A stretch of DNA of 64,000 nt, taken from Candidatus Zixiibacteriota bacterium (GTDB taxonomy: Bacteria; Zixibacteria; MSB-5A5; WJJR01; JAJRUJ01). The DNA lies in the NCBI GenBank assembly GCA_020051695.1, contig JAGVQM010000019.1:15221-79220 (forward strand), given 5' to 3'. The translations under genes were made by a program, and so were the position numbers. The notes under the pieces were generated by a model, which saw nothing but the letters and a program-made list of their open reading frames with translations, ran no database searches and was not told where the DNA came from. Of this stretch, positions 3,271 through 46,202 are shown piece after piece (position 1 is the stretch's first letter; every line of letters begins with the position of its first letter).

Positions 3271-3296
3271 GCCCGCCTTCGTGCGGGCTTTTTTTT
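3271..3296 (+). terminator. Rho-independent terminator after the ERCC4-like gene
   Basis: GCCCGC-cttcgt-GCGGGC hairpin followed directly by T8, 27 nt after the stop codon, between convergent genes. Confidence 0.8.
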
Positions 3297-34741: not shown

Positions 34742-34815
34742 TACCCCCGGCTGGATTCGAACCAGCTACCCTCGGCTTAGAAGGCCGATGCTCTATCCAT
34801 ATGAGCTACGGGGGC
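34742..34815 (-). tRNA. tRNA-Arg (anticodon TCT)
   Basis: 74 nt cloverleaf read by hand: acceptor GCCCCCG/CGGGGGT, D arm GCTC..GAGC, anticodon stem TCGGC/GCCGA with loop CTTCTAA, T arm GCTGG-TTCGAAT-CCAGC. CCA is not encoded. Confidence 0.9.
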
Positions 34816-34919: not shown

Positions 34920-35684
34920 CTAGTTAATAAAGCCCAGCCAGTCGCCGAACAGGAAGCGCATGCGGCCGACCAACAGGGAAATACGCGCCATCACCGTGTA
35001 GCCGAAACCCGCGCCGAAAGTGACCATCAGCAGGTAAATGCCCACGCGCGAGGCGGCGCCGAATGCGCCCTTGTGTTCTTTGGAGAAAAAGAAATACACG
35101 ATCCCGCAAAAGACGCCAAGGAACACCACGACTGCTGACAGCGAATCCGTCGTCAGGAAACCGCCGTCCGGCCCGAACACGGCCAGCGGGTTGATCGTGT
35201 TATAAATCTGCCCGATAAAATCCGAACGCAGGTAGCGGACAAAATTCAATCCGGCAGTGGTCCCGACAATAAACGCCAGCGACCAGCGGGAAATCCAACC
35301 AAGCTTCGAAGACAACCGCAGCAATAAAATAATGCCCAAAATCAGCGGCAGGAGATACCAGTAATTCGGTTCGGCATCGGCCACCGAGGGTAAAAATGGC
35401 CGTACCGCCGGCGGATGCAGCCGCCCGATCAGGTTGGGGACCAGTGTCGTCCAAAACCCCATCGACATCCAGTACGCCGCCGAGACCCCAACAAACAAAT
35501 GCTCGGCAAATTTATAGAACGGGTTGTCTTTATACAAAAAGCTCAGGATACATAAAGTCAGGAACGCGCCGAACGTGATATAAAACCCTTCAAACGCCCG
35601 GGCATCGCGCGCCATGATCGAGATGACGAACGCAATGATCAGCACGATAAATCCGATCAGATAGATGATAGCCCTGCGTTGCAT
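34920..35684 (-). CDS. Cassette subunit A, copy 2
   Basis: 254 aa polytopic protein with SFLYKDNPFYKF, FFSKEHKGA and FGYTVMARISLL. Start lies 3 nt after the B2 stop. Confidence 0.85.
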   Translation of the reverse strand: MQRRAIIYLIGFIVLIIAFVISIMARDARAFEGFYITFGAFLTLCILSFLYKDNPFYKFAEHLFVGVSAAYWMSMGFWTTLVPNLIGRLHPPAVRPFLPSVADAEPNYWYLLPLILGIILLLRLSSKLGWISRWSLAFIVGTTAGLNFVRYLRSDFIGQIYNTINPLAVFGPDGGFLTTDSLSAVVVFLGVFCGIVYFFFSKEHKGAFGAASRVGIYLLMVTFGAGFGYTVMARISLLVGRMRFLFGDWLGFIN

Positions 35685-35687
35685 CGC

Positions 35688-36548
35688 CTATTTCGCCCGC
35701 GCTTTCCGTTTCCGGTCGATGAAAAAGGTCGCGTTGCCGATAATGATGAACAGCATGATCACGATATGCGCCACCGCCTGCGGCCCCATCATCTCCAGCC
35801 CGCCGTGCGGCATTTGCTCAAAATCGGGATATTTCCGGATCATTTCCGATTCGTATTCGGCTGCGCCCTTGATCCCCCCCATCATGCCCAGCATCTGGTT
35901 GGGATAATACGGATACAACTGCGGCGCCGAGACCGCGGTCACCCCGCCGGCCACCGGTATGTTGCCGGGGTCGCCGGCAAAAAGGATCCACTCTTTCAAA
36001 CCGGGAAAGCCGCCGCCGAAGGCCGCGATTAAGTCCATGTTTTTCAAACTGCGGACATCCCGCATCATCGGAATGCTGTCAATCTGCGTGCCGTTGACAT
36101 CGGTAGTATACATCTTCTTCATGTCGGTAATGATCACGTTGATCAGGCCCTGATTACCCGCCTTGTATCCCAGATGGACATAATCCACACCGCAAACCTT
36201 ATCCGGGAAATGTGTCGTGACGATACGGTCGATCGTCTCATCGGCCAGATTTTGCCCCGTGCCCCACAACGCCATGACATACAATTTCAGATTTCGCCGG
36301 CAACAGTGATACATCACGGCATCAACCATCGGTTGCTGTTCGGGAACAGTGGAGGGATCGAAATCCAGCGAAATCAACACCCGCGAACCCTCAGGCAGGG
36401 TCTCGATTTTATCGAAGATCTTCTGCACAATCGGCGTAATCCGCTCGGGAAAGATGACATTGAACAACAGGGGAATAATTACGGACAAGGCAATAAACAA
36501 AAAGATTATCCGCCGGTCGATGTTCTTGATGGTATCGAAAAAGGCCAT
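35688..36548 (-). CDS. Cassette subunit B, copy 2
   Basis: 286 aa. NIDRR followed by a TM, DFDPSTVPEQQPM, GGIKGAAEYE, and a C-terminal TM with an RKRKARAK tail. Confidence 0.85.
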   Translation of the reverse strand: MAFFDTIKNIDRRIIFLFIALSVIIPLLFNVIFPERITPIVQKIFDKIETLPEGSRVLISLDFDPSTVPEQQPMVDAVMYHCCRRNLKLYVMALWGTGQNLADETIDRIVTTHFPDKVCGVDYVHLGYKAGNQGLINVIITDMKKMYTTDVNGTQIDSIPMMRDVRSLKNMDLIAAFGGGFPGLKEWILFAGDPGNIPVAGGVTAVSAPQLYPYYPNQMLGMMGGIKGAAEYESEMIRKYPDFEQMPHGGLEMMGPQAVAHIVIMLFIIIGNATFFIDRKRKARAK

Positions 36549-36552
36549 GGCG

Positions 36553-37341
36553 TTAATCCTTGTCCCGTCCGAGATATGTCCGTTCGATGCCCAGGATCAC
36601 CCGCAGCGACATCGAAATTACTCCCAGCGAAATGCCGATAATAATTGCCCGCTGGCCCGCCAGGTTGGGGACCCCCATAATCCAGTTGGTCAGGTTAGGC
36701 ACTTCGAAAAACGACAGCGCATCAGGCAGCCAGAACGTGGCATAGTACCCGGCGGGCGTCCGCCCCAGCAGAATGACAAAGGCAGTGACCAGCAGGACGG
36801 TGGCTTCCTTGTTTTTAGCCCGGAATGCGCGATACGACGCCGAGGCCACAAAAAAGGCCAGCAGCGCGTACATCGTCGCTTTCAGCGGAGTAAAGACATA
36901 CGTGAAAAAGTCCTGAAACACCGAGCCGGTGGCGGTGAGATTCCCCACCCAGCCGCCGGGGTTGCCGATTTTGAACAACCCGGCCCAGAGCATGACGAAA
37001 AATCCGATGAGTGTGACCATCGAGAAAAACCAGTCTTTGCCGCGCCGGTCCTCGATCCCGCCCATCGCATGGAAGGGAAACGCAATGAGCATCTTCAACG
37101 GCCAGAAGCCCCCCTGTTTCCTGCTTTCCGTGAAATAGAACTTCAACCCGCGGAAGAACCGCCCACTGTGGATCCGCACCAGGTTGCCGCCGCCGAGGAA
37201 GAAGGCAAACACGGCGATGATATCAAAATACAGGCTGAAATTTTCACCCAGCCGGCCGAACGGGTCATGCGGAATAAACGCCGCGATGATCAGCACCGCG
37301 CCGACGGTGAACGTGATTAATAATGGTACCTGCCGTTTCAT
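36553..37341 (-). CDS. Cassette subunit C, copy 2
   Basis: Start placed at ATG 37341 (MKRQVPLLITF), matching the C1 and C3 N-termini. FFVASASYRAFRAKNKEAT and GQRAIIIGISLGVISMSLRVILGIERTY. Confidence 0.85.
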   Translation of the reverse strand: MKRQVPLLITFTVGAVLIIAAFIPHDPFGRLGENFSLYFDIIAVFAFFLGGGNLVRIHSGRFFRGLKFYFTESRKQGGFWPLKMLIAFPFHAMGGIEDRRGKDWFFSMVTLIGFFVMLWAGLFKIGNPGGWVGNLTATGSVFQDFFTYVFTPLKATMYALLAFFVASASYRAFRAKNKEATVLLVTAFVILLGRTPAGYYATFWLPDALSFFEVPNLTNWIMGVPNLAGQRAIIIGISLGVISMSLRVILGIERTYLGRDKD

Positions 37342-37349
37342 GGTTTTGC

Positions 37350-38615
37350 CTATTGATTCAGCCGGAACAGATCGCGCACCCATTCGCCGGCGGTGGTGGC
37401 AATCCCGACATTAAACAATGACCCGATAGTCAGCAGTGTCACGCCGGCCAGGATCGCCAGCATCGCGATCATCTTGCCGACATCCTGCCCCTTCAACGAC
37501 CCCAGCTGGCGCGGTTCGTGCGACAGATAAGCCGAGGCGGCGAACAACTCCTCACCGATCAGCGTATAATCGCAGGCCGCGACAAAAAACGGCAGCTGTG
37601 CGGGCATCGCCGTGCCGGCGATCTGGATCGCCTCGATGGAATGGCCGGTCTCGGCCATAATCAGCGATTCGGCGAAAAACGCGCCGAGATAGAAACAGGT
37701 CGCCGGCCTTTCGCGCACCATGATCCCGTCCACCGCCGCGACATACCCGAACTGTTCGTCGGTGACATACTGCACATAATCATCCGAGTATGCATCGGGG
37801 CGCCCGGCGGCCAGATAGGCCTCTTTAATCGACTCGCGCGCGGTGGTCATCACAATCGAGCGTGAAGTCGGGACAAACAACTTGGAATCATATTCGGCGA
37901 TGGTCTTGGCGATCCGCCCCAAGATCGTAATCCCGGCCACGGTCTGCACGTCGTCCATGTCCTGGATGCCGGGGATAAACAAAATCGGCCGCCCCATTTC
38001 GGTGGCGCGTCCGATCGCCTCGTCGACCGCTTCGAGTCCGGCGATTTTGCGGATAAAGAGTATTTTGCCCCTTTTGGCCGAGGCGATGAAATACCCGATA
38101 AACAACGAGATGATTCCACCGACGACAAACAAATTCAGGATATTGAAATTAAACCACTGCGCGGACGATCGGACCGGACCGATCACCGGCGAAGACGACG
38201 AGCCCCCGGCTGTCTGGGTCTCGATTCTGTAATAGAAATCCGTCCCCGGCACGGTCGAGGCATCAGTGTATCTTTTTTCTCCGGCCGAGGAAAACCCGGT
38301 CTCGCGAAACGGCCCTTCCGGCGATTCGGCGCGCAAAATGCGGTAGCCCGTGACCAGGTTTTCGCCGGGACGGTCATCGGCCGACAGCTCCCAAAAGACA
38401 TTGATCGAATGCCCTTCATCGGAAGGCGTGTCTTCCGCCCCCGCATTGACCGGCGGCGCAGGCCGGCGGACCGCGGCCATCATCCCCGCAACGCCCGTAG
38501 CGGCGGAATCGGCCGGCGCCGAATCGACAACCTGGGCGACCATGCCGGAAGCCGGCAGCAGCATCCCTGCCAGAAGACAGCAAAAAAGAATTTTGTGCAG
38601 CACCTTCATGGTCAC
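37350..38615 (-). CDS. Cassette subunit D, copy 2
   Basis: 421 aa. Signal peptide, FN3-like INVFWELSADDRPGENLVTGYRILR, a TM, GRATEMGRPILF, AESLIMAETG, LPFFVAACDYTLIGEELFAASAYL, and a C-terminal TM. Confidence 0.85.
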   Translation of the reverse strand: MTMKVLHKILFCCLLAGMLLPASGMVAQVVDSAPADSAATGVAGMMAAVRRPAPPVNAGAEDTPSDEGHSINVFWELSADDRPGENLVTGYRILRAESPEGPFRETGFSSAGEKRYTDASTVPGTDFYYRIETQTAGGSSSSPVIGPVRSSAQWFNFNILNLFVVGGIISLFIGYFIASAKRGKILFIRKIAGLEAVDEAIGRATEMGRPILFIPGIQDMDDVQTVAGITILGRIAKTIAEYDSKLFVPTSRSIVMTTARESIKEAYLAAGRPDAYSDDYVQYVTDEQFGYVAAVDGIMVRERPATCFYLGAFFAESLIMAETGHSIEAIQIAGTAMPAQLPFFVAACDYTLIGEELFAASAYLSHEPRQLGSLKGQDVGKMIAMLAILAGVTLLTIGSLFNVGIATTAGEWVRDLFRLNQ

Positions 38616-38639
38616 GACGTCAATTCAGTTTCAGACCGA

Positions 38640-39383
38640 CTAGTTAATCAATTGCAACCAATCACTCATGAGATAATCCATGCGGCCGATCAACAGCGAT
38701 AACCGGCTCATGACCGTATACCCGAATGATGCGCCGAACGTGAGCATCAGTGTCCAGATCCCGATTTTGGCCACCCCGCCGAATGCGCCTTTATGTTCCT
38801 TGGAAAAATAAAAATAGATCAGTCCGGAGAGCGTCCCGATGACCAATATTGCCTGAGAAATGGTCGCCCACAAGTCGAGATTCCCGGCGGCATCGTAACG
38901 CTGCAGCGGGCCAGCAGAGGCCCCCAGCTGGAGGATGCCGTTGGAAACAAAGTAATTGATAAAATACAACCCCGCCGTCGCGCCGACCACCACCGCCAGC
39001 GGCCAGCGGGAGATCCACCCCGCTTTGGGAAACAACCGCATCAGCATCAGGACGCCCAGAAGCCCGCCGATCAGCATCATCCACCGGTCATCCCATCCGC
39101 CGCCCTGCACGAACGTCGTGTGATAGGCCGCGCCGACCCCGACGAAGAGCTTGGAATACATATTCTGCCAGAATAATGAGACAAACCAATAGCCGGCGGA
39201 AATTCCCACAAATGCGGCTTCGGAAAACTTGTAATACGGGTTGTCTTTATACAAGAAGGAAAAGATACCGATGGTAAAAAACGCACCCAGGGTCACCGCA
39301 AGGCCCTGGGATGCGGCCAGGATCGCAAAAACGGCGATTCCGACGGCGATAACGATATAGCCGACTACTTTGGTGTTCATCAT
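38640..39383 (-). CDS. Cassette subunit A, copy 3
   Basis: 247 aa with SFLYKDNPYYKF, YFSKEHKGA and FGYTVMSRLSLL. ATGA overlap with the B3 stop. Confidence 0.85.
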   Translation of the reverse strand: MMNTKVVGYIVIAVGIAVFAILAASQGLAVTLGAFFTIGIFSFLYKDNPYYKFSEAAFVGISAGYWFVSLFWQNMYSKLFVGVGAAYHTTFVQGGGWDDRWMMLIGGLLGVLMLMRLFPKAGWISRWPLAVVVGATAGLYFINYFVSNGILQLGASAGPLQRYDAAGNLDLWATISQAILVIGTLSGLIYFYFSKEHKGAFGGVAKIGIWTLMLTFGASFGYTVMSRLSLLIGRMDYLMSDWLQLIN

Positions 39384-40237
39384 GTTTGCTTCCGCCGGCC
39401 ACCGGCAAAGTAGGCCACATTACCCACGATGATGAAGAGGATCACGATGATGTGGGCAAATGACTGGGATAACATGAATTTCGTGGCCTTGCCCAGGGTA
39501 CCGGCCAACTCTTCAAATTCCGAAGCGCCCTTGAGGCCGCCCAGAATCCCCCGGAGCTGCCCGCTTTCAAAATAGGGATACGCCAGCGGGGCCTGTACTG
39601 CTGTCGTCCCCCCCAATAATTGTACCCCGAAACGATCAACGCCGAATTGCACCCACTCCACAATACCCGGATATCCGGCGGAGACATTGATCACAAAGTC
39701 GATATTGTTAAAATTCTGCATTCCCTGCATCAGCGGTAACTCGGCGATTGGCGTGCCCCGGAAATCGCGCGGGAATGCCGCGGGAATCGACGAACCCATC
39801 CGCTGGATCACCAATTCATTGCCGGCCTGGAAACCGAGGTTGACCCAGTCGCGGCCATAGGTCAGCGTCTTGCCCTTCCAGATAATCGTTTCTCCGGGCA
39901 CCTCGCCCAGTACGGACTCCAAGGCGGCATTGGCCTGCTGCGGTCCCTGCGGCCACAGTCCCATGATGATCATCTTCAAGTCATGATCGAGGCAATACCG
40001 GATCGCCGTTATCGCCATCGGCTGCAATTCCGGCGCCGAGGGAGGGTCATAATCACAGGGAATGAGCACGCGGGCGCCCGGCTGCAGTCGCGCCAGTTCG
40101 TCAAAACCACGACGCACTTCGTAAGAAATCGTGGTCTTTTGGGAGATATTCAAAAATAACGGCAGGGTGACCGCAACGATGACGAACAGGAAAATAATCC
40201 GCCGGTCGATCTTCATCAATTTGTCCCAAAAACCCAT
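39380..40237 (-). CDS. Cassette subunit B, copy 3
   Basis: Start placed at ATG 40237 (MGFWDKLMKIDRRIIFLF), matching B1 and B2. The tracked 348 aa ORF adds 63 non-homologous residues that overlap C3. DYDPPSAPELQPM and GGLKGASEFE. Confidence 0.85.
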   Translation of the reverse strand: MGFWDKLMKIDRRIIFLFVIVAVTLPLFLNISQKTTISYEVRRGFDELARLQPGARVLIPCDYDPPSAPELQPMAITAIRYCLDHDLKMIIMGLWPQGPQQANAALESVLGEVPGETIIWKGKTLTYGRDWVNLGFQAGNELVIQRMGSSIPAAFPRDFRGTPIAELPLMQGMQNFNNIDFVINVSAGYPGIVEWVQFGVDRFGVQLLGGTTAVQAPLAYPYFESGQLRGILGGLKGASEFEELAGTLGKATKFMLSQSFAHIIVILFIIVGNVAYFAGGRRKQT

Positions 40238-40254
40238 GCCGTTCCTGCCTGTCA

Positions 40255-40917
40255 TCAATCGCCGCTGACAAATGTCCGTTCGATCCCCAGAATAATCCGC
40301 AATGATGTCGACATGATCCCCAGCGCGATGCCGATCATGATCGCCCGCTGCCCGGCGGTGTTGGGGATGTTCATCACCCAATCGGCCCAGTTGGACAACC
40401 ACAGCCAGTGGGGCAACTGCAACCATTCTTTGGTGATCATATCACCGACCGGCACCCGCCCCAGCATCACAAAAAATGCAGCCAACAGCAGCATCGTCGC
40501 TTCCTTGTTGCGGGCGCGGAAGGCCCGATAGGAAGCCGAGGCCACGAAAAAACCGAGAAGGGCAAACATCGTGGAGGACAGCGGATCATAGACATTATCA
40601 TAAATGAACATGAACCGCGTACCGGGCTCCTGAAAATTCGCTCCTCTGGAGAAAAAGATGCCGACGATAAATATTGCGGCAAAACCGATAATCGTCACCA
40701 GTGAATACATCCAGTCTTTCTTGCGCCGGGCAACCTTGAGCAACGACAATTTCATCAAGTTCAGCGCACCCAGCCAGATGGCAAAGGCCTGAATGATCCC
40801 AAACCAGTCGGAAAACCAGTCGGAAAACCGGGAAACCGGTTCGTGCGGCACGAAATATTGGAAGATGTACATGATCCCCACCACCGCAGTGATGATCAAT
40901 GGAACTTCACGCTTCAT
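40255..40917 (-). CDS. Cassette subunit C, copy 3
   Basis: 220 aa. MKREVPLII, FFVASASYRAFRARNKEAT and GQRAIMIGIALGIMSTSLRIILGIERTF. Confidence 0.85.
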   Translation of the reverse strand: MKREVPLIITAVVGIMYIFQYFVPHEPVSRFSDWFSDWFGIIQAFAIWLGALNLMKLSLLKVARRKKDWMYSLVTIIGFAAIFIVGIFFSRGANFQEPGTRFMFIYDNVYDPLSSTMFALLGFFVASASYRAFRARNKEATMLLLAAFFVMLGRVPVGDMITKEWLQLPHWLWLSNWADWVMNIPNTAGQRAIMIGIALGIMSTSLRIILGIERTFVSGD

Positions 40918-40950
40918 CTTCGCTCAAACCCTTCCCGTCTCCCCACGACG

Positions 40951-42195
40951 CTACACCTGGAACCACCCGGAAATATCCGCAATCTTAAATGTTCCCAGGA
41001 GCAAACCTGCGACAGCCGCGATCAAGATCAGTACTTTGGCCACGTCCTGACCCTTGACGCTGCCCAGTAATTTCGGTTCTTTCGACAGATAGGCCGAGGC
41101 GGCAAAAAGCTCTTCGCCAATTAATGTATAGTCGCAGGCCGCCACAAAAAACGGCAATTGAGAGGCATTCGCGGTGCCCGCGATCTGAATCGCACCGATC
41201 GCATTGCCGGTTTCGGCCATAATTAACGACTCGGCGTAAAACGCGCCCATATAGAAAATCGTCGCCGGTTTCTCGCGGACAAACAAGCCGTCCAGCGCAG
41301 CGGCATAACCGAACTGGTCATCGGTAAGATAACGCACGATGTCTTCGTTGAACGCATCCGGCCGGCCGACGTTCAAATAGGCCTCCTTCACCACCTCGCG
41401 GGAGGTGATCATCACCAGTGAACGCGAAACCGGAACATCCAATTGCGCATCGTACTCCGCGGCCAGTTTGGCGATCCGCCCCAGGATGGTCACCCCAGCC
41501 AGGGTCTGGACATTATCCATATCCTGTGTCCCGGGGATATACACCAGCTTGCGGCCCATTTCGGTGGCGCGCCCGACCGCCTGTTCGACTTCCGCCAGAC
41601 CGGCGATAGGCCGGACGTACAAATCCTTGCCCTTCTTGGCCACATTGATAAACCACAAAATCGAAATTCCGATTACCAGCACCCAGGGCAAAATCCGTGC
41701 GGTGCGAATGATATGAAACCACTGGCCGGAGGCTTTCGCGGCCCCGGAGAGCGGCGAAGCCACGCCGGCAAACAGTTTTTCCCCGGCCGGAGTGAACTTG
41801 CCGGCCAGGGCGGCCACCTTATAGTAATAATTTACCCCGTTGTCGACCTGGCCGTCGGTGAGCGTGGTCATTCCGGCGGTCGCGGAACCAACGGTATCAA
41901 ACGGCCCGTCGGGCGAAGTCGAACGCAAGATAATATACTTGGTGACATTTCTGCGGCCGGCAACATCATCGGCGGACAGTTCCCAACTGATAGTAATCGA
42001 TTTCCCGGCGTCATCAGGGGTATCCTGGGCTTCGACCGAGACAACCGGCGCCGGGGCTTCGAGTTGGGGCGGAGTTTCAGCCACAACGACCGTGGTCGAG
42101 TCGACGGGAGCATCCTGTGCCCAGGCAGGCGATGCCGCGCCACATACAGGAAAGACCAGCAGGAACAGGGAGATGGACAACGCTTTTTTCATCAT
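40951..42195 (-). CDS. Cassette subunit D, copy 3
   Basis: Start placed at ATG 42195 (MMKKALSISLFLLVFPVCGAASPAWA signal peptide). The tracked GTG at 42225 lies inside a terminator hairpin. ITISWELSADDVAGRRNVTKYIILR, GRATEMGRKLVY, AESLIMAETG and LPFFVAACDYTLIGEELFAASAYL. Confidence 0.85.
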   Translation of the reverse strand: MMKKALSISLFLLVFPVCGAASPAWAQDAPVDSTTVVVAETPPQLEAPAPVVSVEAQDTPDDAGKSITISWELSADDVAGRRNVTKYIILRSTSPDGPFDTVGSATAGMTTLTDGQVDNGVNYYYKVAALAGKFTPAGEKLFAGVASPLSGAAKASGQWFHIIRTARILPWVLVIGISILWFINVAKKGKDLYVRPIAGLAEVEQAVGRATEMGRKLVYIPGTQDMDNVQTLAGVTILGRIAKLAAEYDAQLDVPVSRSLVMITSREVVKEAYLNVGRPDAFNEDIVRYLTDDQFGYAAALDGLFVREKPATIFYMGAFYAESLIMAETGNAIGAIQIAGTANASQLPFFVAACDYTLIGEELFAASAYLSKEPKLLGSVKGQDVAKVLILIAAVAGLLLGTFKIADISGWFQV

Positions 42196-42210
42196 CAGCA
42201 GTTCCTGCAC

Positions 42211-42241
42211 AAAAAAAATCCCCACCTGCTTTGAGGTGAGG
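42211..42241 (-). terminator. Intrinsic-terminator hairpin inside the 5' leader of the tandem cassette operon (candidate attenuator)
   Basis: Minus strand reads CCTCACCT-caaagc-AGGTGGGG (8 bp stem with one G.U), then A and T8, ending 15 nt before ATG 42195. No minus-strand gene ends immediately upstream of it. Confidence 0.65.
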
Positions 42242-42352
42242 TCCTATTCATCGACGAGACTGGGTTCCCGGACAATGACTTGTTCTGCGTTTCCCGTCTC
42301 TCATAACCGTCACTATTATCCCATCCCCATCCCGCACACTCACAAGTGATAG

Positions 42353-42382
42353 AATATACCCCCCGCATATACCGCCTGTCAA
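42353..42382 (-). promoter_or_regulatory. Candidate sigma70-type promoter of the tandem cassette operon
   Basis: Minus strand reads TTGACA (42382-42377), 18 nt spacer, TATATT (42358-42353). This predicts a leader of roughly 150 nt. Confidence 0.5.
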
Positions 42383-42515
42383 GGCAATTATTCCCCGGAG
42401 AACCAATCAACGGCGGCTCTGCTGGCCGCTGATCAGTGCGGTGCATTTATCGAAAAACCTGTTGACATCCGGCCCCGTGCCCGCTTGCTCTAGGGGAAAG
42501 GATAGAGCGCAACTG

Positions 42516-43198: not shown

Positions 43199-46105
43199 CT
43201 ATAATTCTCCGTTGGCGTCGGTTTTAATGATGCTGAAATCAGCAGATGTGGCACCATGAGCGGTCATCCACCCGCTGATGATCAGACCACCATCGGGAGC
43301 TTCAATGACACCGGTGGCCCCATCACTTTCGGAATCACCGATGGTCCGTTCCCACAGGATCGTCGCAGTCGGACTTATTTTTGCCACGTACATATCGCTT
43401 TTGCCTGCGCCAAACGATTTAGTAGAACCAACAACAACAAAATTGCCATCCGAAACCGCAATGATCTTTGAAATCGCATCATCATTGCCGCCACCCAGAT
43501 AGAGTTCGTTGCGTTTATTGCCCAACGAATCAATCCATATTACATAACCATCTTTCATTCCGAAATACGATGCCTGGGTCCATCCGGCAATTACGTAATC
43601 ATCGATTCCATATTGAATCAGCGATTCGCCACTGTCATTGTAATAGTAGGCCCCCTGACCGTAATCTCTGCCCCACAAGTTTTTACCCTGCGCATCAGTC
43701 TTGGTAACAAACAAACCGACGCCAGCTATCATCAACCCGGTATCATGACACTGAATCACCGCATTGCCGCCATAGCCCGAATATTGCCTTTTCCAGGTTT
43801 CCTGTCCGATGGCATCAGTTTTGAACAAGAATGCTGCGGGGTTGCCTCCGACGGAGCCAGACAGAACATACCCACCGTCTGATGTTGCTGCGACAGATCG
43901 GCTGCCAGCCACCACCGTGGCACCGTCAACATAATGAAGGCGTTCCCAACCAATTGAACCGAAATCATCGATTCTGGCGATTACAACTCTGGTATCCCAT
44001 ACTAATCCCCCGCGTTCCCCCGATTCTCCGGCCGCGATATATCCACCATCCCATGCCGGGATTATTGAAAAGAGGTAATCGTCATAATCCGGTCCATGGC
44101 CAAAAACCCGTTCCCATGCCACTGTACCATCGGCGTTGACTTTAGTCGCGTAAAAATCAGAAGTCGACTGCGGTGAATAACTTGGACTCCAATAGGCAAC
44201 GCCATTTGGAATTGTGCCGACCGCCACCGCGCCACCCTCAGGGGTTAAAGTAATTGAGCGTGCTGCTTTCCTGCCAGTGCCTCCGATAATAGTATACCAA
44301 GTATTGGATAACGTTGTTGTTTTCGCCTCTGCCACATTGGAAAGTCCAGACCAATTTCCCGAAGTATCCGCCGTCTTCAGCGCTAAAAAATAATTCAATC
44401 CTGGAGTTAATCCGATTATCTCAAATGATTCCGCTTCGTGTACAGGTTTCGCAGGCCGTAATCCTTCTGCCGGAATCCCCTCACTCCATGTATCATCTGT
44501 AATCGGTGACGTTGCATAGCGCATGTCGTATTGAGCTGCCTGCCCCAAAAGACTATCGTCACCCGACGCGTTCCAAATCAAGGTCACCGAATTATGGCTG
44601 ACGGTTTGCGGGTACAGGTTCGTTATTGCTGCCGGAGGGATTGTGTCTGTTCCAGGTCGGGCGATTCCCAGCACATCATTCGAGAGAGGGGACCAATTCT
44701 GGACCTCATCCGCAGTTTTTATGGCAAAATGATAGGCGGTGTTTTTCGTCAAACCCGTTACCATGAGTGTTTCCGGGGAACCACTTGATAGAGGCAACGT
44801 AACACCGGGATAGGAATATAGTGCTCTGAAATTAGTTTCATTAATTACTGAAGTCGAGTATCGAAGATCGTATAAACTAGCCGTTCCCACATCGCCATCA
44901 TCTCCCGGCGCCGTCCAACTCAAGGTCAGCGATGTCAATGATGAATCGATAATCCGCAAATCAATGATTGCCCCCGGCGGCGTCCGGTCGATGCTCGCTG
45001 TCCGCGCCGCCAGTACGTTGGACATCGTCGACCAGTTCAGCATTTCGTCGCCGGTTTTCAGGGCAATATAATATTCAGTTTCACTCTGCAAACCGGAAAT
45101 CCTGATTGTGTCACCAGTTCCGGCGAACGATGGTTTCGGCAGATTTGGCGCGATTTGTGCATCGGGAAAATTCACTTCGTTCATCAGCCGGGGAGAATAA
45201 CGAATATCATAAAACGACGCTCGTCCCAGCGTGTCGTCATCACCCGGCGCCGTCCAGATCAACAAAAGAGAAGTGCTCGTCGTATCCAGAACTCTCAGAT
45301 CAGCAATCGGTCCCGGAGGCGTGGTATCGGCCGCCGTGGCGCCGATGATGACATTAGACATTGCCGACCAGTTCGGGACTTCATCGGCGGTTTTAATTGC
45401 AAAACAATAATTTTCGTTCGTGTCCAGGTCATAGAAAGTATACTGCTGCGTGCTGTCCGCCAGCCAGGGTGTCGGTGGATCGGCAACCTGTTTCGCATGA
45501 ATAAAATATTCGTCGGTAATCAGCGTGGTCGGTGAATAACGGATATCATATGCTGCGGCAGTCCCCGCCGAGCCGTCATCGCCGGGCACGGTCCAGCTTA
45601 ATTCAATGAAGGTATATCCGGCGTCAGTCACCCGCAAATCGGCAATTGCTGCCGGGGGGACAGTATCCAGGACAGCTTCTGTCGTGCCGGTGGCGATATT
45701 GGAGATCGCCGACCAGTTGGGCACTTCATCAGCCGCCTTGATCCCAAAATAATATGTTGTGTCCGGCAACAGCCCGAGGACCAGCATCGTCTCCGGCGTC
45801 CCCGCTTCCTGCGGGATCGGCAGACTGAACGGCTGCAGCGCCGAATCCCAGGTGGAATCGGTCAGGACGATGGAATGAAATCGGATATCATATTGGGCCG
45901 CCGTGCCGTTGGCGTCATCATCCCCGGGCGCGGTCCAGGTCAGCACCAGCGAACTGTCAGTGGGATTGATCGCCGCAAGATCGGTAATTTGTGCCGGGGG
46001 TGTGCTGTCGGGAATACCGGTGCCCTTGTCGGTTTTTTCCACGCCGCAGGACAAGACAAGCACGACGATCAAACCGGCGCCAATCAACGACTTTCGCAGT
46101 CGCAT
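43199..46105 (-). CDS. Large lipoprotein: five FN3-like repeats followed by beta-propeller-like repeats
   Basis: Start at ATG 46105 (MRLRKSLIGAGLIVVLVLSCG, lipobox LVLS|C). Five repeats of about 113 aa each contain W(T/N)APGDD..G.A..YD(I/L/M)RY and ..KTADEV.NWS. The C-terminal half has recurring DGGY(I/V)..G and W(E/K)R motifs. Confidence 0.8.
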   Translation of the reverse strand: MRLRKSLIGAGLIVVLVLSCGVEKTDKGTGIPDSTPPAQITDLAAINPTDSSLVLTWTAPGDDDANGTAAQYDIRFHSIVLTDSTWDSALQPFSLPIPQEAGTPETMLVLGLLPDTTYYFGIKAADEVPNWSAISNIATGTTEAVLDTVPPAAIADLRVTDAGYTFIELSWTVPGDDGSAGTAAAYDIRYSPTTLITDEYFIHAKQVADPPTPWLADSTQQYTFYDLDTNENYCFAIKTADEVPNWSAMSNVIIGATAADTTPPGPIADLRVLDTTSTSLLLIWTAPGDDDTLGRASFYDIRYSPRLMNEVNFPDAQIAPNLPKPSFAGTGDTIRISGLQSETEYYIALKTGDEMLNWSTMSNVLAARTASIDRTPPGAIIDLRIIDSSLTSLTLSWTAPGDDGDVGTASLYDLRYSTSVINETNFRALYSYPGVTLPLSSGSPETLMVTGLTKNTAYHFAIKTADEVQNWSPLSNDVLGIARPGTDTIPPAAITNLYPQTVSHNSVTLIWNASGDDSLLGQAAQYDMRYATSPITDDTWSEGIPAEGLRPAKPVHEAESFEIIGLTPGLNYFLALKTADTSGNWSGLSNVAEAKTTTLSNTWYTIIGGTGRKAARSITLTPEGGAVAVGTIPNGVAYWSPSYSPQSTSDFYATKVNADGTVAWERVFGHGPDYDDYLFSIIPAWDGGYIAAGESGERGGLVWDTRVVIARIDDFGSIGWERLHYVDGATVVAGSRSVAATSDGGYVLSGSVGGNPAAFLFKTDAIGQETWKRQYSGYGGNAVIQCHDTGLMIAGVGLFVTKTDAQGKNLWGRDYGQGAYYYNDSGESLIQYGIDDYVIAGWTQASYFGMKDGYVIWIDSLGNKRNELYLGGGNDDAISKIIAVSDGNFVVVGSTKSFGAGKSDMYVAKISPTATILWERTIGDSESDGATGVIEAPDGGLIISGWMTAHGATSADFSIIKTDANGEL
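44321..46000 (-). repeat. Five tandem, diverged FN3-like coding repeats (~340 nt period) within the lipoprotein gene
   Basis: Repeat units begin at ORF residues ~47, 160, 274, 387 and 500 (each TPP/VPP/IPP...I.DL). They are diverged at the DNA level. Confidence 0.75.
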
Positions 46106-46202
46106 CCCCACCTCCCGCCGAGCGCAAGTGTCCGGCATTACTACGATTCACTAGTAATAATACTACATGAATCGGGGGTGTCAACAAAAATCCAGGCGCC
46201 GA

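What the first reader, a model, noticed from the sequence alone, without database searches (positions are those of the whole stretch)
42196..42382. Roughly 150 nt leader with a strong terminator hairpin immediately upstream of the cassette operon: candidate riboswitch, attenuator or sRNA
On the minus strand, a perfect -35 TTGACA and a 5/6 -10 TATATT (18 nt spacer) are followed by about 150 nt of non-coding sequence. This leader contains a G-tract element (CGGGATGGGGATGGGA) and a GAGAC...GTCTC pairing. It ends in an 8 bp GC-rich hairpin plus T8, only 15 nt before the D3 start codon. No minus-strand gene ends just upstream, so this terminator is not a normal gene-end terminator. The layout of promoter, structured leader, terminator, RBS and ATG is the classic architecture of transcription attenuation. 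I could not match the leader to a riboswitch class from memory. Alternatively, it could encode a short independent sRNA of about 130 nt.
Basis: partly seen in the sequence, partly recalled or inferred. Interest (0 to 1): 0.6.

Follow-up and report, generated by a model that had tools for sequence, protein, structure and literature searches.

The report
Conserved operon leader: small ORF plus terminator
A strong promoter, a conserved 18-codon mini-gene and a transcription terminator sit directly in front of an eight-gene membrane operon of unknown function in an uncultivated Zixibacteria bacterium; this is most likely a translation-coupled attenuator, a familiar kind of switch in a new sequence family, not a riboswitch.

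Summary
A promoter matching 11 of 12 consensus positions (42382-42353, minus strand) is followed by a leader of about 150 nt. The leader ends in an 8-bp hairpin plus T8 (42241-42211), 15 nt before the ATG of the first DUF6754 gene. The same layout occurs in 12 further distinct contigs from close relatives (first-gene protein 72-84% identical), with compensatory changes in the terminator stem. No Rfam family matches.

The conserved "UAUGA" and "GAUGA" motifs are its start and stop. It is 18 codons in 7 leaders, present in 12 of 13, usually ends Arg-Arg-stop, and its stop lies 6-8 nt before the terminator stem in 7 of 12. The peptide itself is not under selection.

Covariation tests give no support for a riboswitch-like fold, and complementarity tests give none for a G-tract antiterminator.

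The best reading is a translation-coupled (leader-peptide type) attenuator whose direction of control is unresolved. The rivals are an RNA- or protein-sensing attenuator and a short, abundant transcript of the mccA type or an sRNA.

The element is confined to one narrow clade. The nearest outgroup lacks it, although terminator-bearing leaders of unrelated sequence recur upstream of this operon across the phylum. Interest is moderate to low.

The parts
42377..42395 (-). -35 hexamer TTGACA (42382-42377) with the conserved upstream block GGGAATAAT(TGCC)
   Evidence: One search finds the promoter (11 of 12). In the alignment of the 7 closest leaders this 15-nt bin is the most conserved in the intergenic region, at 0.95 identity. 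It is present in all 13 clade leaders.
42353..42358 (-). -10 hexamer TATATT; the inferred transcription start is near 42347
   Evidence: GGTATATT is conserved in most relatives. The start site is inferred from spacing and was not measured.
42318..42333 (-). G-tract CGGGAUGGGGAUGGGA, which carries GGA/GGAUG motifs. It is a possible distant Shine-Dalgarno-like or standby site for the small ORF, or a protein-binding or antiterminator strand.
   Evidence: It is conserved across the clade (A5 invariant G columns). Complementarity to a canonical anti-SD is <= -6 kcal/mol in 11 of 12 leaders, against 12% of internal ATG controls, but the spacing is 12-20 nt. Pairing with the terminator 5' arm is not better than in shuffles.
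42306..42313 (-). 5' strand of helix P1 (GUGACGGU; GGCGAC in most relatives), immediately upstream of the small-ORF AUG
   Evidence: It pairs with 42258-42251. Cells are 70.6% paired over 13 sequences, with G-C to A-U and G-U exchanges, but this is not significant against the controls.
42248..42304 (-). Small ORF: ATG 42304-42302 to TGA 42250-42248, 18 codons, MRDGKRRTSHCPGTQSRR
   Evidence: An AUG sits at the homologous position in 12 of 13 leaders. Seven have exactly 18 codons. The stop is UGA or UAA at the same position. Eight leaders end Arg-Arg-stop (L170 seen).
42251..42258 (-). 3' strand of helix P1 (CUCGUCGA), which coincides with the terminal Arg-Arg codons of the small ORF
   Evidence: The RNA constraint and the coding constraint on these bases cannot be separated.
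42211..42241 (-). Intrinsic terminator: CCUCACCU, loop CAAAGC, AGGUGGGG, A, U8
   Evidence: -12.3 kcal/mol. Cells are 98% paired in 13 sequences, and 3 pairs change on both sides, for example in L001 and L168. It is of the same quality as the gene-end terminators in this window.
42196..42210 (-). 15-nt spacer with the SD-like AGGAA, upstream of the ATG of the first DUF6754 gene
   Evidence: GCGGGAAC/GCAGGAAC is conserved in relatives.
34920..42195 (-). The controlled operon: a 4-gene membrane cassette (DUF6754 protein plus three genes without Pfam hits) duplicated in tandem, 8 genes in all
   Evidence: The same organisation is seen in relatives.

Best explanation
This is a cis-acting transcription attenuator in the 5' leader of the DUF6754 operon, and translation of a short leader ORF probably controls it.

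A strong sigma-70-type promoter starts an RNA near 42347. About 45 nt in lies an 18-codon ORF. Its stop codon is 6 nt upstream of a strong intrinsic terminator, and the terminator ends 15 nt before the first structural gene.

Because no promoter can fit after the terminator, the eight-gene operon is transcribed only when RNA polymerase reads through it.

Proposed mechanism (inferred, not shown): a ribosome that follows the polymerase closely and sits on the terminal Arg-Arg-stop codons covers most of the 5' arm CCUCACCU. This prevents the hairpin from forming and allows read-through. Without a ribosome there, the hairpin forms and a product of about 135 nt is released.

The opposite direction is also possible, as in mccA: ribosome binding would free the 5' arm from an upstream G-rich partner and so induce termination.

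What is shown: the promoter, the ORF, the terminator, their spacing and their conservation. What is inferred: that the ORF is translated, that termination is conditional, and the direction of control.
For: - The architecture is verified in the window.
- The same architecture is found in 12 other distinct contigs of the clade with conserved synteny. The leader is as conserved as the start of the coding region (0.70-0.88 identity), while the spacer between the two divergent promoters is not (0.44-0.55).
- The terminator stem is 98% paired with compensatory changes.
- Small ORF: the AUG is conserved in 12 of 13 leaders. Seven have exactly 54 nt between the A of the AUG and the first base of the stop codon, despite about 50% interior divergence. 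Stop identity is kept through UGA to UAA changes. The L166 difference is an in-frame 3-nt deletion. The gap from stop to stem is 6-8 nt in 7 of 12.
- An ORF ends 3-22 nt before the terminator in 8 of the 9 main-clade leaders tested, against a per-leader null of 0.08-0.26.
- SD-like complementarity lies upstream of the ORF in 11 of 12 leaders.
- The lack of codon-position bias fits a leader peptide for which the act of translation matters rather than the product.
- Only 15 nt separate the T-run from the gene ATG.
- Established knowledge: a coupled ribosome prevents intrinsic terminator hairpins from forming (PMC5021804), and ribosome-controlled termination next to a tiny ORF is documented for mccA (PMC4231749).
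Against: - There are no expression data.
- There is no evidence of selection on the peptide, and a second frame is also open in 6 of 7 sequences, so openness of the frame alone is weak evidence.
- The SD-like G-tract lies 12-20 nt from the AUG, further than usual.
- One clade member (L167) has neither the AUG nor the in-frame stop yet keeps the G-tract, P1 and the terminator.
- In 4 of 12 leaders the stop lies 14-19 nt from the stem, too far for simple occlusion.
- No antiterminator is statistically supported.
- The Arg-Arg codons coincide with the 3' strand of helix P1, so their conservation may reflect RNA pairing.
- The 13 sequences are related, so the counts are not independent.
Confidence: 0.45

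Rival explanations
1. An attenuator that senses through RNA or an RNA-binding protein, with no role for translation. In this reading the G-tract (GGA/GGAUG motifs) and helix P1 form a binding site for a ligand or a protein of the TRAP, PyrR or CsrA kind. Binding decides whether the pyrimidine-rich 5' arm is free to form the terminator. The AUG and URA motifs would then be structural.
For: - The G-tract and P1 are conserved.
- In truncated-transcript folds the G-tract pairs with the 5' arm, enclosing P1, in L161, L163 and L002.
- In L168 the C-to-U change in the arm turns the A.C mismatch with GGAUGGGG into A-U (by inspection).
- L167 keeps everything except the ORF.
- Many other Zixibacteria leaders of this operon carry terminators without any small ORF.
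Against: - No Rfam family matches.
- There is no covariation in P1 or in the G-tract:arm pairing beyond the controls.
- Complementarity between the upstream leader and the 5' arm equals that of dinucleotide shuffles: mean z -0.13, with 1 of 27 at p<=0.05.
- An exact 54-nt spacing with a divergent interior is unusual for an aptamer.
- The GGA motifs are adjacent rather than presented in separate hairpin loops.
Confidence: 0.2
2. A constitutive, leaky terminator produces an abundant short transcript of about 135 nt plus a minor read-through operon mRNA. The short RNA is itself the product. It would either be a messenger for an 18-residue peptide with a conserved C-terminal Arg-Arg that works with the membrane cassette (mccA-like stoichiometry control), or an sRNA of the kind the first reader proposed.
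For: - A near-consensus promoter is followed by a strong terminator.
- Peptide length and C-terminus are conserved while the rest varies, the pattern described for MccA-type precursors.
- The mccA precedent has an intrinsic terminator between a tiny ORF and its operon.
Against: - The cassette proteins are membrane proteins with no recognisable peptide-modifying enzyme.
- There is no selection on the peptide sequence.
- Arg-Arg is absent in L001, L002 and L169, and the ORF is absent in L167.
- The element is absent from the nearest outgroup, which has the same operon.
- An independent sRNA would leave the operon without a promoter.
Confidence: 0.2
3. A chance co-occurrence of a promoter-like and a terminator-like sequence in an ordinary intergenic region.
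For: Loose terminator-like patterns are about as common as in shuffled sequence: 3 found against 2.1 expected.
Against: The promoter, G-tract, ORF boundaries and terminator are all conserved in position and sequence in 12 other distinct contigs, with compensatory stem changes.
Confidence: 0.02

Closest known systems
Leader-peptide (ribosome-mediated) transcription attenuators, such as the trp/his/pyrBI leaders of enterobacteria and BmrB-bmrCD of Bacillus subtilis (PMC4191407)
   Same: A promoter is followed by a short leader ORF and an intrinsic terminator directly before the first structural gene. The ribosome's position on the leader is the presumed signal. Only the key codons and the length of the peptide are conserved.
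   Different: No antiterminator alternative could be demonstrated. The stop codon abuts the terminator (6-8 nt), so direct occlusion is the simplest model, closer to pyrBI than to trp. The conserved codons are a terminal Arg-Arg-stop with no evident link to the operon's unknown function. The host is an uncultivated phylum, and there is no sequence relationship to any described leader.
mccA-mccB ribosome-controlled terminator of the microcin C operon (PMC4231749)
   Same: A tiny ORF lies behind a strong promoter, with an intrinsic terminator between it and the rest of the operon. Upstream sequences around the ORF's ribosome-binding region can interfere with the terminator. Length and C-terminus are the conserved features of the peptide.
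   Different: No MccB-like enzyme or other biosynthetic gene lies downstream. The ORF has 18 codons rather than 7. The upstream-sequence antiterminator is not statistically supported here.
Arrest peptides that stall at a stop codon, such as TnaC and SpeFL (from my own knowledge, not tested here)
   Same: A short ORF ends in a basic or Arg-containing C-terminus followed by a stop, positioned so that a stalled ribosome would block a termination signal.
   Different: Those systems block Rho loading rather than an intrinsic hairpin. They have conserved sensor residues in the peptide, whereas here the peptide interior is not conserved.
Terminator-type riboswitches
   Same: A structured leader ends in an intrinsic terminator used as the expression platform.
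   Different: There is no match to any Rfam class and no conserved aptamer fold with covariation. The conserved motifs read as a start codon and a stop codon.

Membership tests
Leader-peptide transcription attenuator | An intrinsic terminator lies within the 5' leader, downstream of the promoter and upstream of the first structural gene, with no intervening promoter | tested here: met
   There are 15 nt between the T8 run and the ATG. The arrangement is conserved in 13 leaders.
Leader-peptide transcription attenuator | A short ORF in the leader with conserved start, frame and stop | tested here: met
   The AUG is present in 12 of 13 leaders. Seven have 18 codons. UGA/UAA sits at the same position, and the one indel is in frame.
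Leader-peptide transcription attenuator | The leader ORF is actually translated | not testable with these tools
   The only indirect evidence is SD-like complementarity in 11 of 12 leaders, at an unusually long spacing of 12-20 nt.
Leader-peptide transcription attenuator | Mutually exclusive antiterminator and terminator structures selected by ribosome position | tested here: inconclusive
   G-tract:5'-arm pairing appears in 3 of 10 truncated-transcript folds. It shows no covariation and no excess over shuffles. Direct occlusion by a ribosome at the stop codon would not need an antiterminator.
Leader-peptide transcription attenuator | Regulatory codons related to the function of the operon | tested here: inconclusive
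   A terminal Arg-Arg is conserved in 8 of 12 ORFs, but these codons overlap helix P1 and the operon's function is unknown.
Riboswitch (any known class) | A match to a curated aptamer model | tested here: not met
   Rfam 15 gives nothing at the gathering threshold, only chance-level hits at E>=1.4 in the region, and nothing at E<=1 in 8 related loci.
Riboswitch (new class) | A conserved aptamer secondary structure supported by covariation | tested here: not met
   RNAalifold recovers only the terminator. P1 and G-tract pairings do not exceed the controls. With 13 related sequences, statistical power is low.
Independent trans-acting sRNA gene | Its own promoter and terminator | tested here: met
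Independent trans-acting sRNA gene | The downstream gene is transcribed independently of the sRNA | tested here: not met
   Only 15 nt lie between the T-run and the ATG, and no promoter-like site is found there.
Csr/Rsm-type GGA-motif RNA | Several GGA motifs presented in separate hairpin loops | tested here: not met
   The 2-3 GGA motifs are adjacent within a single 16-nt tract. The presence of CsrA in the genome was not tested.
mccA-like precursor-peptide unit | A peptide-modifying enzyme (MccB-like) is encoded downstream | tested here: not met
   Pfam and NCBIfam find only DUF6754/fn3 and weak membrane-domain hits.

The most novel reading that the evidence does not exclude
The leader is a new kind of sensor. 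One version is a nascent-peptide or release-factor-dependent ribosome arrest at Arg-Arg-stop that directly masks an intrinsic terminator. The other is a new G-tract riboswitch or protein-binding switch. Either would control a phylum-specific, duplicated envelope machine (the DUF6754 cassette). Terminator-bearing leaders recur in front of this operon across Zixibacteria, which would mean that conditional read-through is a general requirement of the system.
Probability: 0.12. Interest if true: 0.65.

Novelty: new member of a known kind. Interest (0 to 1): 0.36.

Why it matters
Almost nothing is known about gene regulation in Zixibacteria or about the DUF6754 cassette. No paper in the library mentions it.

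A conserved attenuator in front of the operon would show three things. Intrinsic termination and probably transcription-translation coupling are used for regulation in this phylum. The cassette is expressed conditionally. There is a compact element of about 190 nt that can be tested directly in vitro or in a heterologous host.

The finding does not open a new class of mechanism, and it is confined to a narrow clade.

Tried and rejected
- **Known RNA family.** Rfam found nothing at the gathering or E-value thresholds, in the window or in 8 related loci.
- **Riboswitch-like consensus fold.** RNAalifold finds only the terminator. Counts for P1 and for the G-tract:arm helix are not above the shuffles or the slid controls.
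- **G-tract as antiterminator.** Duplex energies against the 5' arm were compared with 200 dinucleotide shuffles in 27 leaders. Mean z was -0.13.
- **G-quadruplex.** L162 and L163 lack three or four G-runs (by inspection).
- **K-turn reading of UAUGA/GAUGA.** The non-bulged strand lacks the required GA next to the helix (by inspection).
- **Small ORF before the terminator as a phylum-wide rule.** Outside the clade, 4 of 18 leaders have one, against 2.3 expected.
- **Functional small protein.** Variation by codon position is 145/156/144, so there is no purifying selection.
- **Wider distribution.** blastn of the leader against 80 loci found nothing significant. Covariance model R1 found only clade members, plus weak hits at the homologous position in L052, L102 and L157. 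The nearest outgroup, L171/L172, has a short leader with no terminator.
- **Operon function.** Pfam, NCBIfam, PDB sequence search and one AlphaFold model with Foldseek against PDB recovered only the fn3 domain.

Full report
**Observation**

All coordinates are on the minus strand. The -35 TTGACA (42382-42377) and -10 TATATT (42358-42353) are separated by 18 nt and match 11 of 12 consensus positions. This is the best of four promoter-like sites in 1.8 kb, against 0.8 expected.

The leader contains the G-tract CGGGATGGGGATGGGA at 42333-42318. It ends in the hairpin CCTCACCT-CAAAGC-AGGTGGGG followed by A and T8 (42241-42211). The stem has 8 pairs (5 G-C, 2 G-U, 1 A-U) and folds at -12.3 kcal/mol. 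Fifteen nt later comes the ATG (42195) of a 414-residue DUF6754 protein, which is the start NCBI uses.

The upstream neighbour is a divergent plus-strand gene (ATG 42516, 222 aa). It is called in the same position in related contigs. So the terminator does not end a gene. The window does contain canonical gene-end terminators of the same quality, at 3271-3288 (+) and 31427-31407 (-), which shows the organism uses intrinsic termination.

**Context**

Named homologues identify the organism as a Zixibacteria MAG. Downstream lies an eight-gene, tightly packed operon made of a 4-gene membrane cassette duplicated in tandem. Each cassette has a DUF6754 protein (signal peptide, fn3 domain, transmembrane helices) followed by three genes without Pfam hits.

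The operon's function is unknown:
- no literature mentions DUF6754;
- there are no solved relatives;
- an AlphaFold model (pLDDT 71) matched only fn3 domains.

**Conservation**

Two capped scans and twelve contig look-ups gave 173 related loci.
- The 12 further distinct contigs whose first-gene protein is 72-84% identical all share the same upstream layout: L001, L002 (whose leader is the same as that of L173), and L161-L170. They share the GGGAATAA-N-CTTGACA promoter, the G-tract, a helix that I call P1, the terminator CCUCACC/GGUGGGG with U6-8, and an SD-like GCGGGAAC.
- In the seven closest sequences the leader is 0.70-0.88 identical per 15-nt bin. The spacer between the two divergent promoters is only 0.44-0.55 identical.
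- The terminator is 98% paired, with three pairs changed on both sides, for example CCUUGCC/GGCGGGG in L001 and CCUCAUCUG/CAGAUGAGG in L168.
- A covariance model built from the 13 leaders scores them at 82-132 bits and finds one copy in the window. Outside the clade it finds only weak hits at the homologous position in L052, L102 and L157.
- The nearest outgroup (61% identity, L171/L172) has an 80-nt leader with no terminator.
- Rfam finds nothing in the window or in eight relatives.

**The small ORF**

The two most conserved "motifs" in the interior of the leader, UAUGA and GAUGA, are the start and stop of a small ORF. In the window it runs from ATG 42304 to TGA 42248 and encodes MRDGKRRTSHCPGTQSRR.

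- An AUG sits at the homologous position in 12 of 13 leaders.
- Seven have exactly 18 codons although the interior differs by about half.
- The stop is UGA or UAA at the same position. The sister pair L002/L169 has 15 codons ending in UAG.
- L166 differs by an in-frame 3-nt deletion plus a premature stop.
- Eight peptides end Arg-Arg-stop.
- The gap from the stop to the terminator stem is 6-8 nt in 7 of 12.
- An ORF ends 3-22 nt before the terminator in 8 of the 9 main-clade leaders tested, against a per-leader null of 0.08-0.26.
- The G-tract gives SD-like complementarity of <= -6 kcal/mol in 11 of 12 leaders, against 36% of called genes and 12% of internal ATGs. Its spacing from the AUG is long, at 12-20 nt.

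Against a functional peptide: variation is equal at the three codon positions (145/156/144), and a second frame is also open in 6 of 7 sequences. L167 has lost the AUG and the in-frame stop. This pattern fits a leader peptide for which the act of translation matters. It is also compatible with a non-coding reading.

**RNA structure**

RNAalifold recovers only the terminator.

P1 pairs the 8 nt before the AUG (42313-42306) with the terminal Arg codons (42258-42251). It is 70.6% paired and shows some G-C/A-U/G-U exchange, but it does not exceed the shuffled or slid controls.

The appealing idea that the G-tract (GGAUGGGG), which resembles the 3' arm GGUGGGG, acts as an antiterminator on CCUCACC(U) is not supported:
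- 72% of cells pair, with no covariation;
- it appears in the minimum-energy fold of truncated transcripts in only 3 of 10 sequences;
- across 27 terminator-bearing leaders, complementarity between the upstream leader and the 5' arm equals that of dinucleotide shuffles, with mean z -0.13.

**Phylum-wide picture**

A strong TTGAC(A/T)-17-TAnnnT promoter lies 100-200 nt upstream of the DUF6754 gene in most loci. Forty-five of 110 leaders contain a terminator-like hairpin, against 20% of coding-sequence controls, and many of these lie 10-50 nt before the start codon.

The leader sequences are unrelated between clades. Small ORFs before the terminator are not enriched outside the main clade: 4 of 18 observed against 2.3 expected. 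Pairs of related small ORFs do occur in individual cases: L017/L025 and L022/L129, and single ones in L052 and L102.

**Interpretation**

Shown: a conserved promoter, a small ORF and an intrinsic terminator lie directly in front of the operon, with no room for another promoter. By architecture this is an attenuator.

Inferred (confidence 0.45): control is coupled to translation. A ribosome on Arg-Arg-stop would cover most of the 5' arm, because the stem starts 6-8 nt after the stop. This blocks the hairpin and allows read-through. The principle that a coupled ribosome prevents intrinsic terminator hairpins is established (PMC5021804). The reverse direction, ribosome-induced termination as at mccA (PMC4231749), is not excluded.

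Rivals:
- an RNA- or protein-sensing attenuator that uses the G-tract and P1 (0.2);
- a constitutive leaky terminator that makes an abundant short messenger or sRNA (0.2);
- chance (0.02).

**Verdict**

The attenuation reading is partly supported. The riboswitch reading is not supported. The key feature, a leader ORF, was missed.

This is a new sequence family, absent from Rfam, of a well-known regulatory kind. It is confined to a narrow uncultivated clade, and no experimental data are available. Interest is moderate to low.

Noticed in passing
window 34920-42195 (-): The operon is a tandem duplication of a 4-gene cassette of about 3.7 kb (a DUF6754 protein plus three membrane proteins without Pfam hits), with 70-75% DNA identity between the copies. 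Close relatives have the same two-cassette arrangement.
   Followed up: partly
window 42383-42395 (-): The block GGGAATAAT(TGCC) immediately upstream of the -35 is the most conserved stretch of the whole intergenic region (0.95 identity). It could be an UP element or an activator site.
   Followed up: no
window 42462-42467 (+) and 42481-42500: A conserved TTGACA on the plus strand lies 48 nt before the ATG (42516) of the divergent 222-aa gene, followed by a conserved GCTTGCTCTAGGGG block. No canonical -10 is evident. The 222-aa protein has a C-terminal transmembrane helix and no family match, and it is syntenic in relatives, so it might be a regulator of the operon.
   Followed up: partly
window 42225 versus 42195; L168 609; L169 868: Start-codon annotations disagree. 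The JGI 424-aa call starts at a GTG inside the terminator 3' arm, while NCBI uses the ATG at 42195. In L168 and L169 the called starts lie in or just after the leader terminator, upstream of the homologous ATG.
   Followed up: yes
window 43199-46138 (-), repeats at 44661-45938: The 979-aa fn3-rich protein contains four tandem DNA repeats of about 340 nt (60-74% identical). Its orthologues are 1088-1208 aa long, so the repeat number appears to vary.
   Followed up: no
loci L017, L025, L028, L032, L038, L046, L053, L057, L064, L070, L086, L126 and others: Leaders of DUF6754 operons in other Zixibacteria clades carry their own intrinsic terminators of unrelated sequence. The 5' arms are typically pyrimidine-rich (CCUCAC, CCUUC, ACCAC) and the 3' arms purine-rich. 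In some (L028, L086, L100) the 3' arm sits at the Shine-Dalgarno distance from the start codon.
   Followed up: partly
window ~42348-42335 (-); L161, L162, L168 at the 5' end of the leader: A small hairpin right at the inferred transcript 5' end (CACU-loop-AGUG) has a closing pair that differs between relatives: C-G in L161 and G-C in L162 and L168. GC-rich outgroups also start their leaders with a stable hairpin. This may be a 5' stabiliser. It could not be tested by columns because the alignment shifts by one position.
   Followed up: no
G-tract in L161, L162, L164, L168, L170, L001: The GGAUGGG of the G-tract contains an AUG that is in frame with the small ORF in these six leaders. It would extend the peptide to 23-29 residues, starting MG(K/R). 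In the window subclade this frame is closed by UAA/UAG, and the upstream AUG is absent in L163, L002 and L169.
   Followed up: partly
window 34742-34815 (-): A tRNA gene lies about 100 nt after the last gene of the operon on the same strand and could be co-transcribed with it.
   Followed up: no
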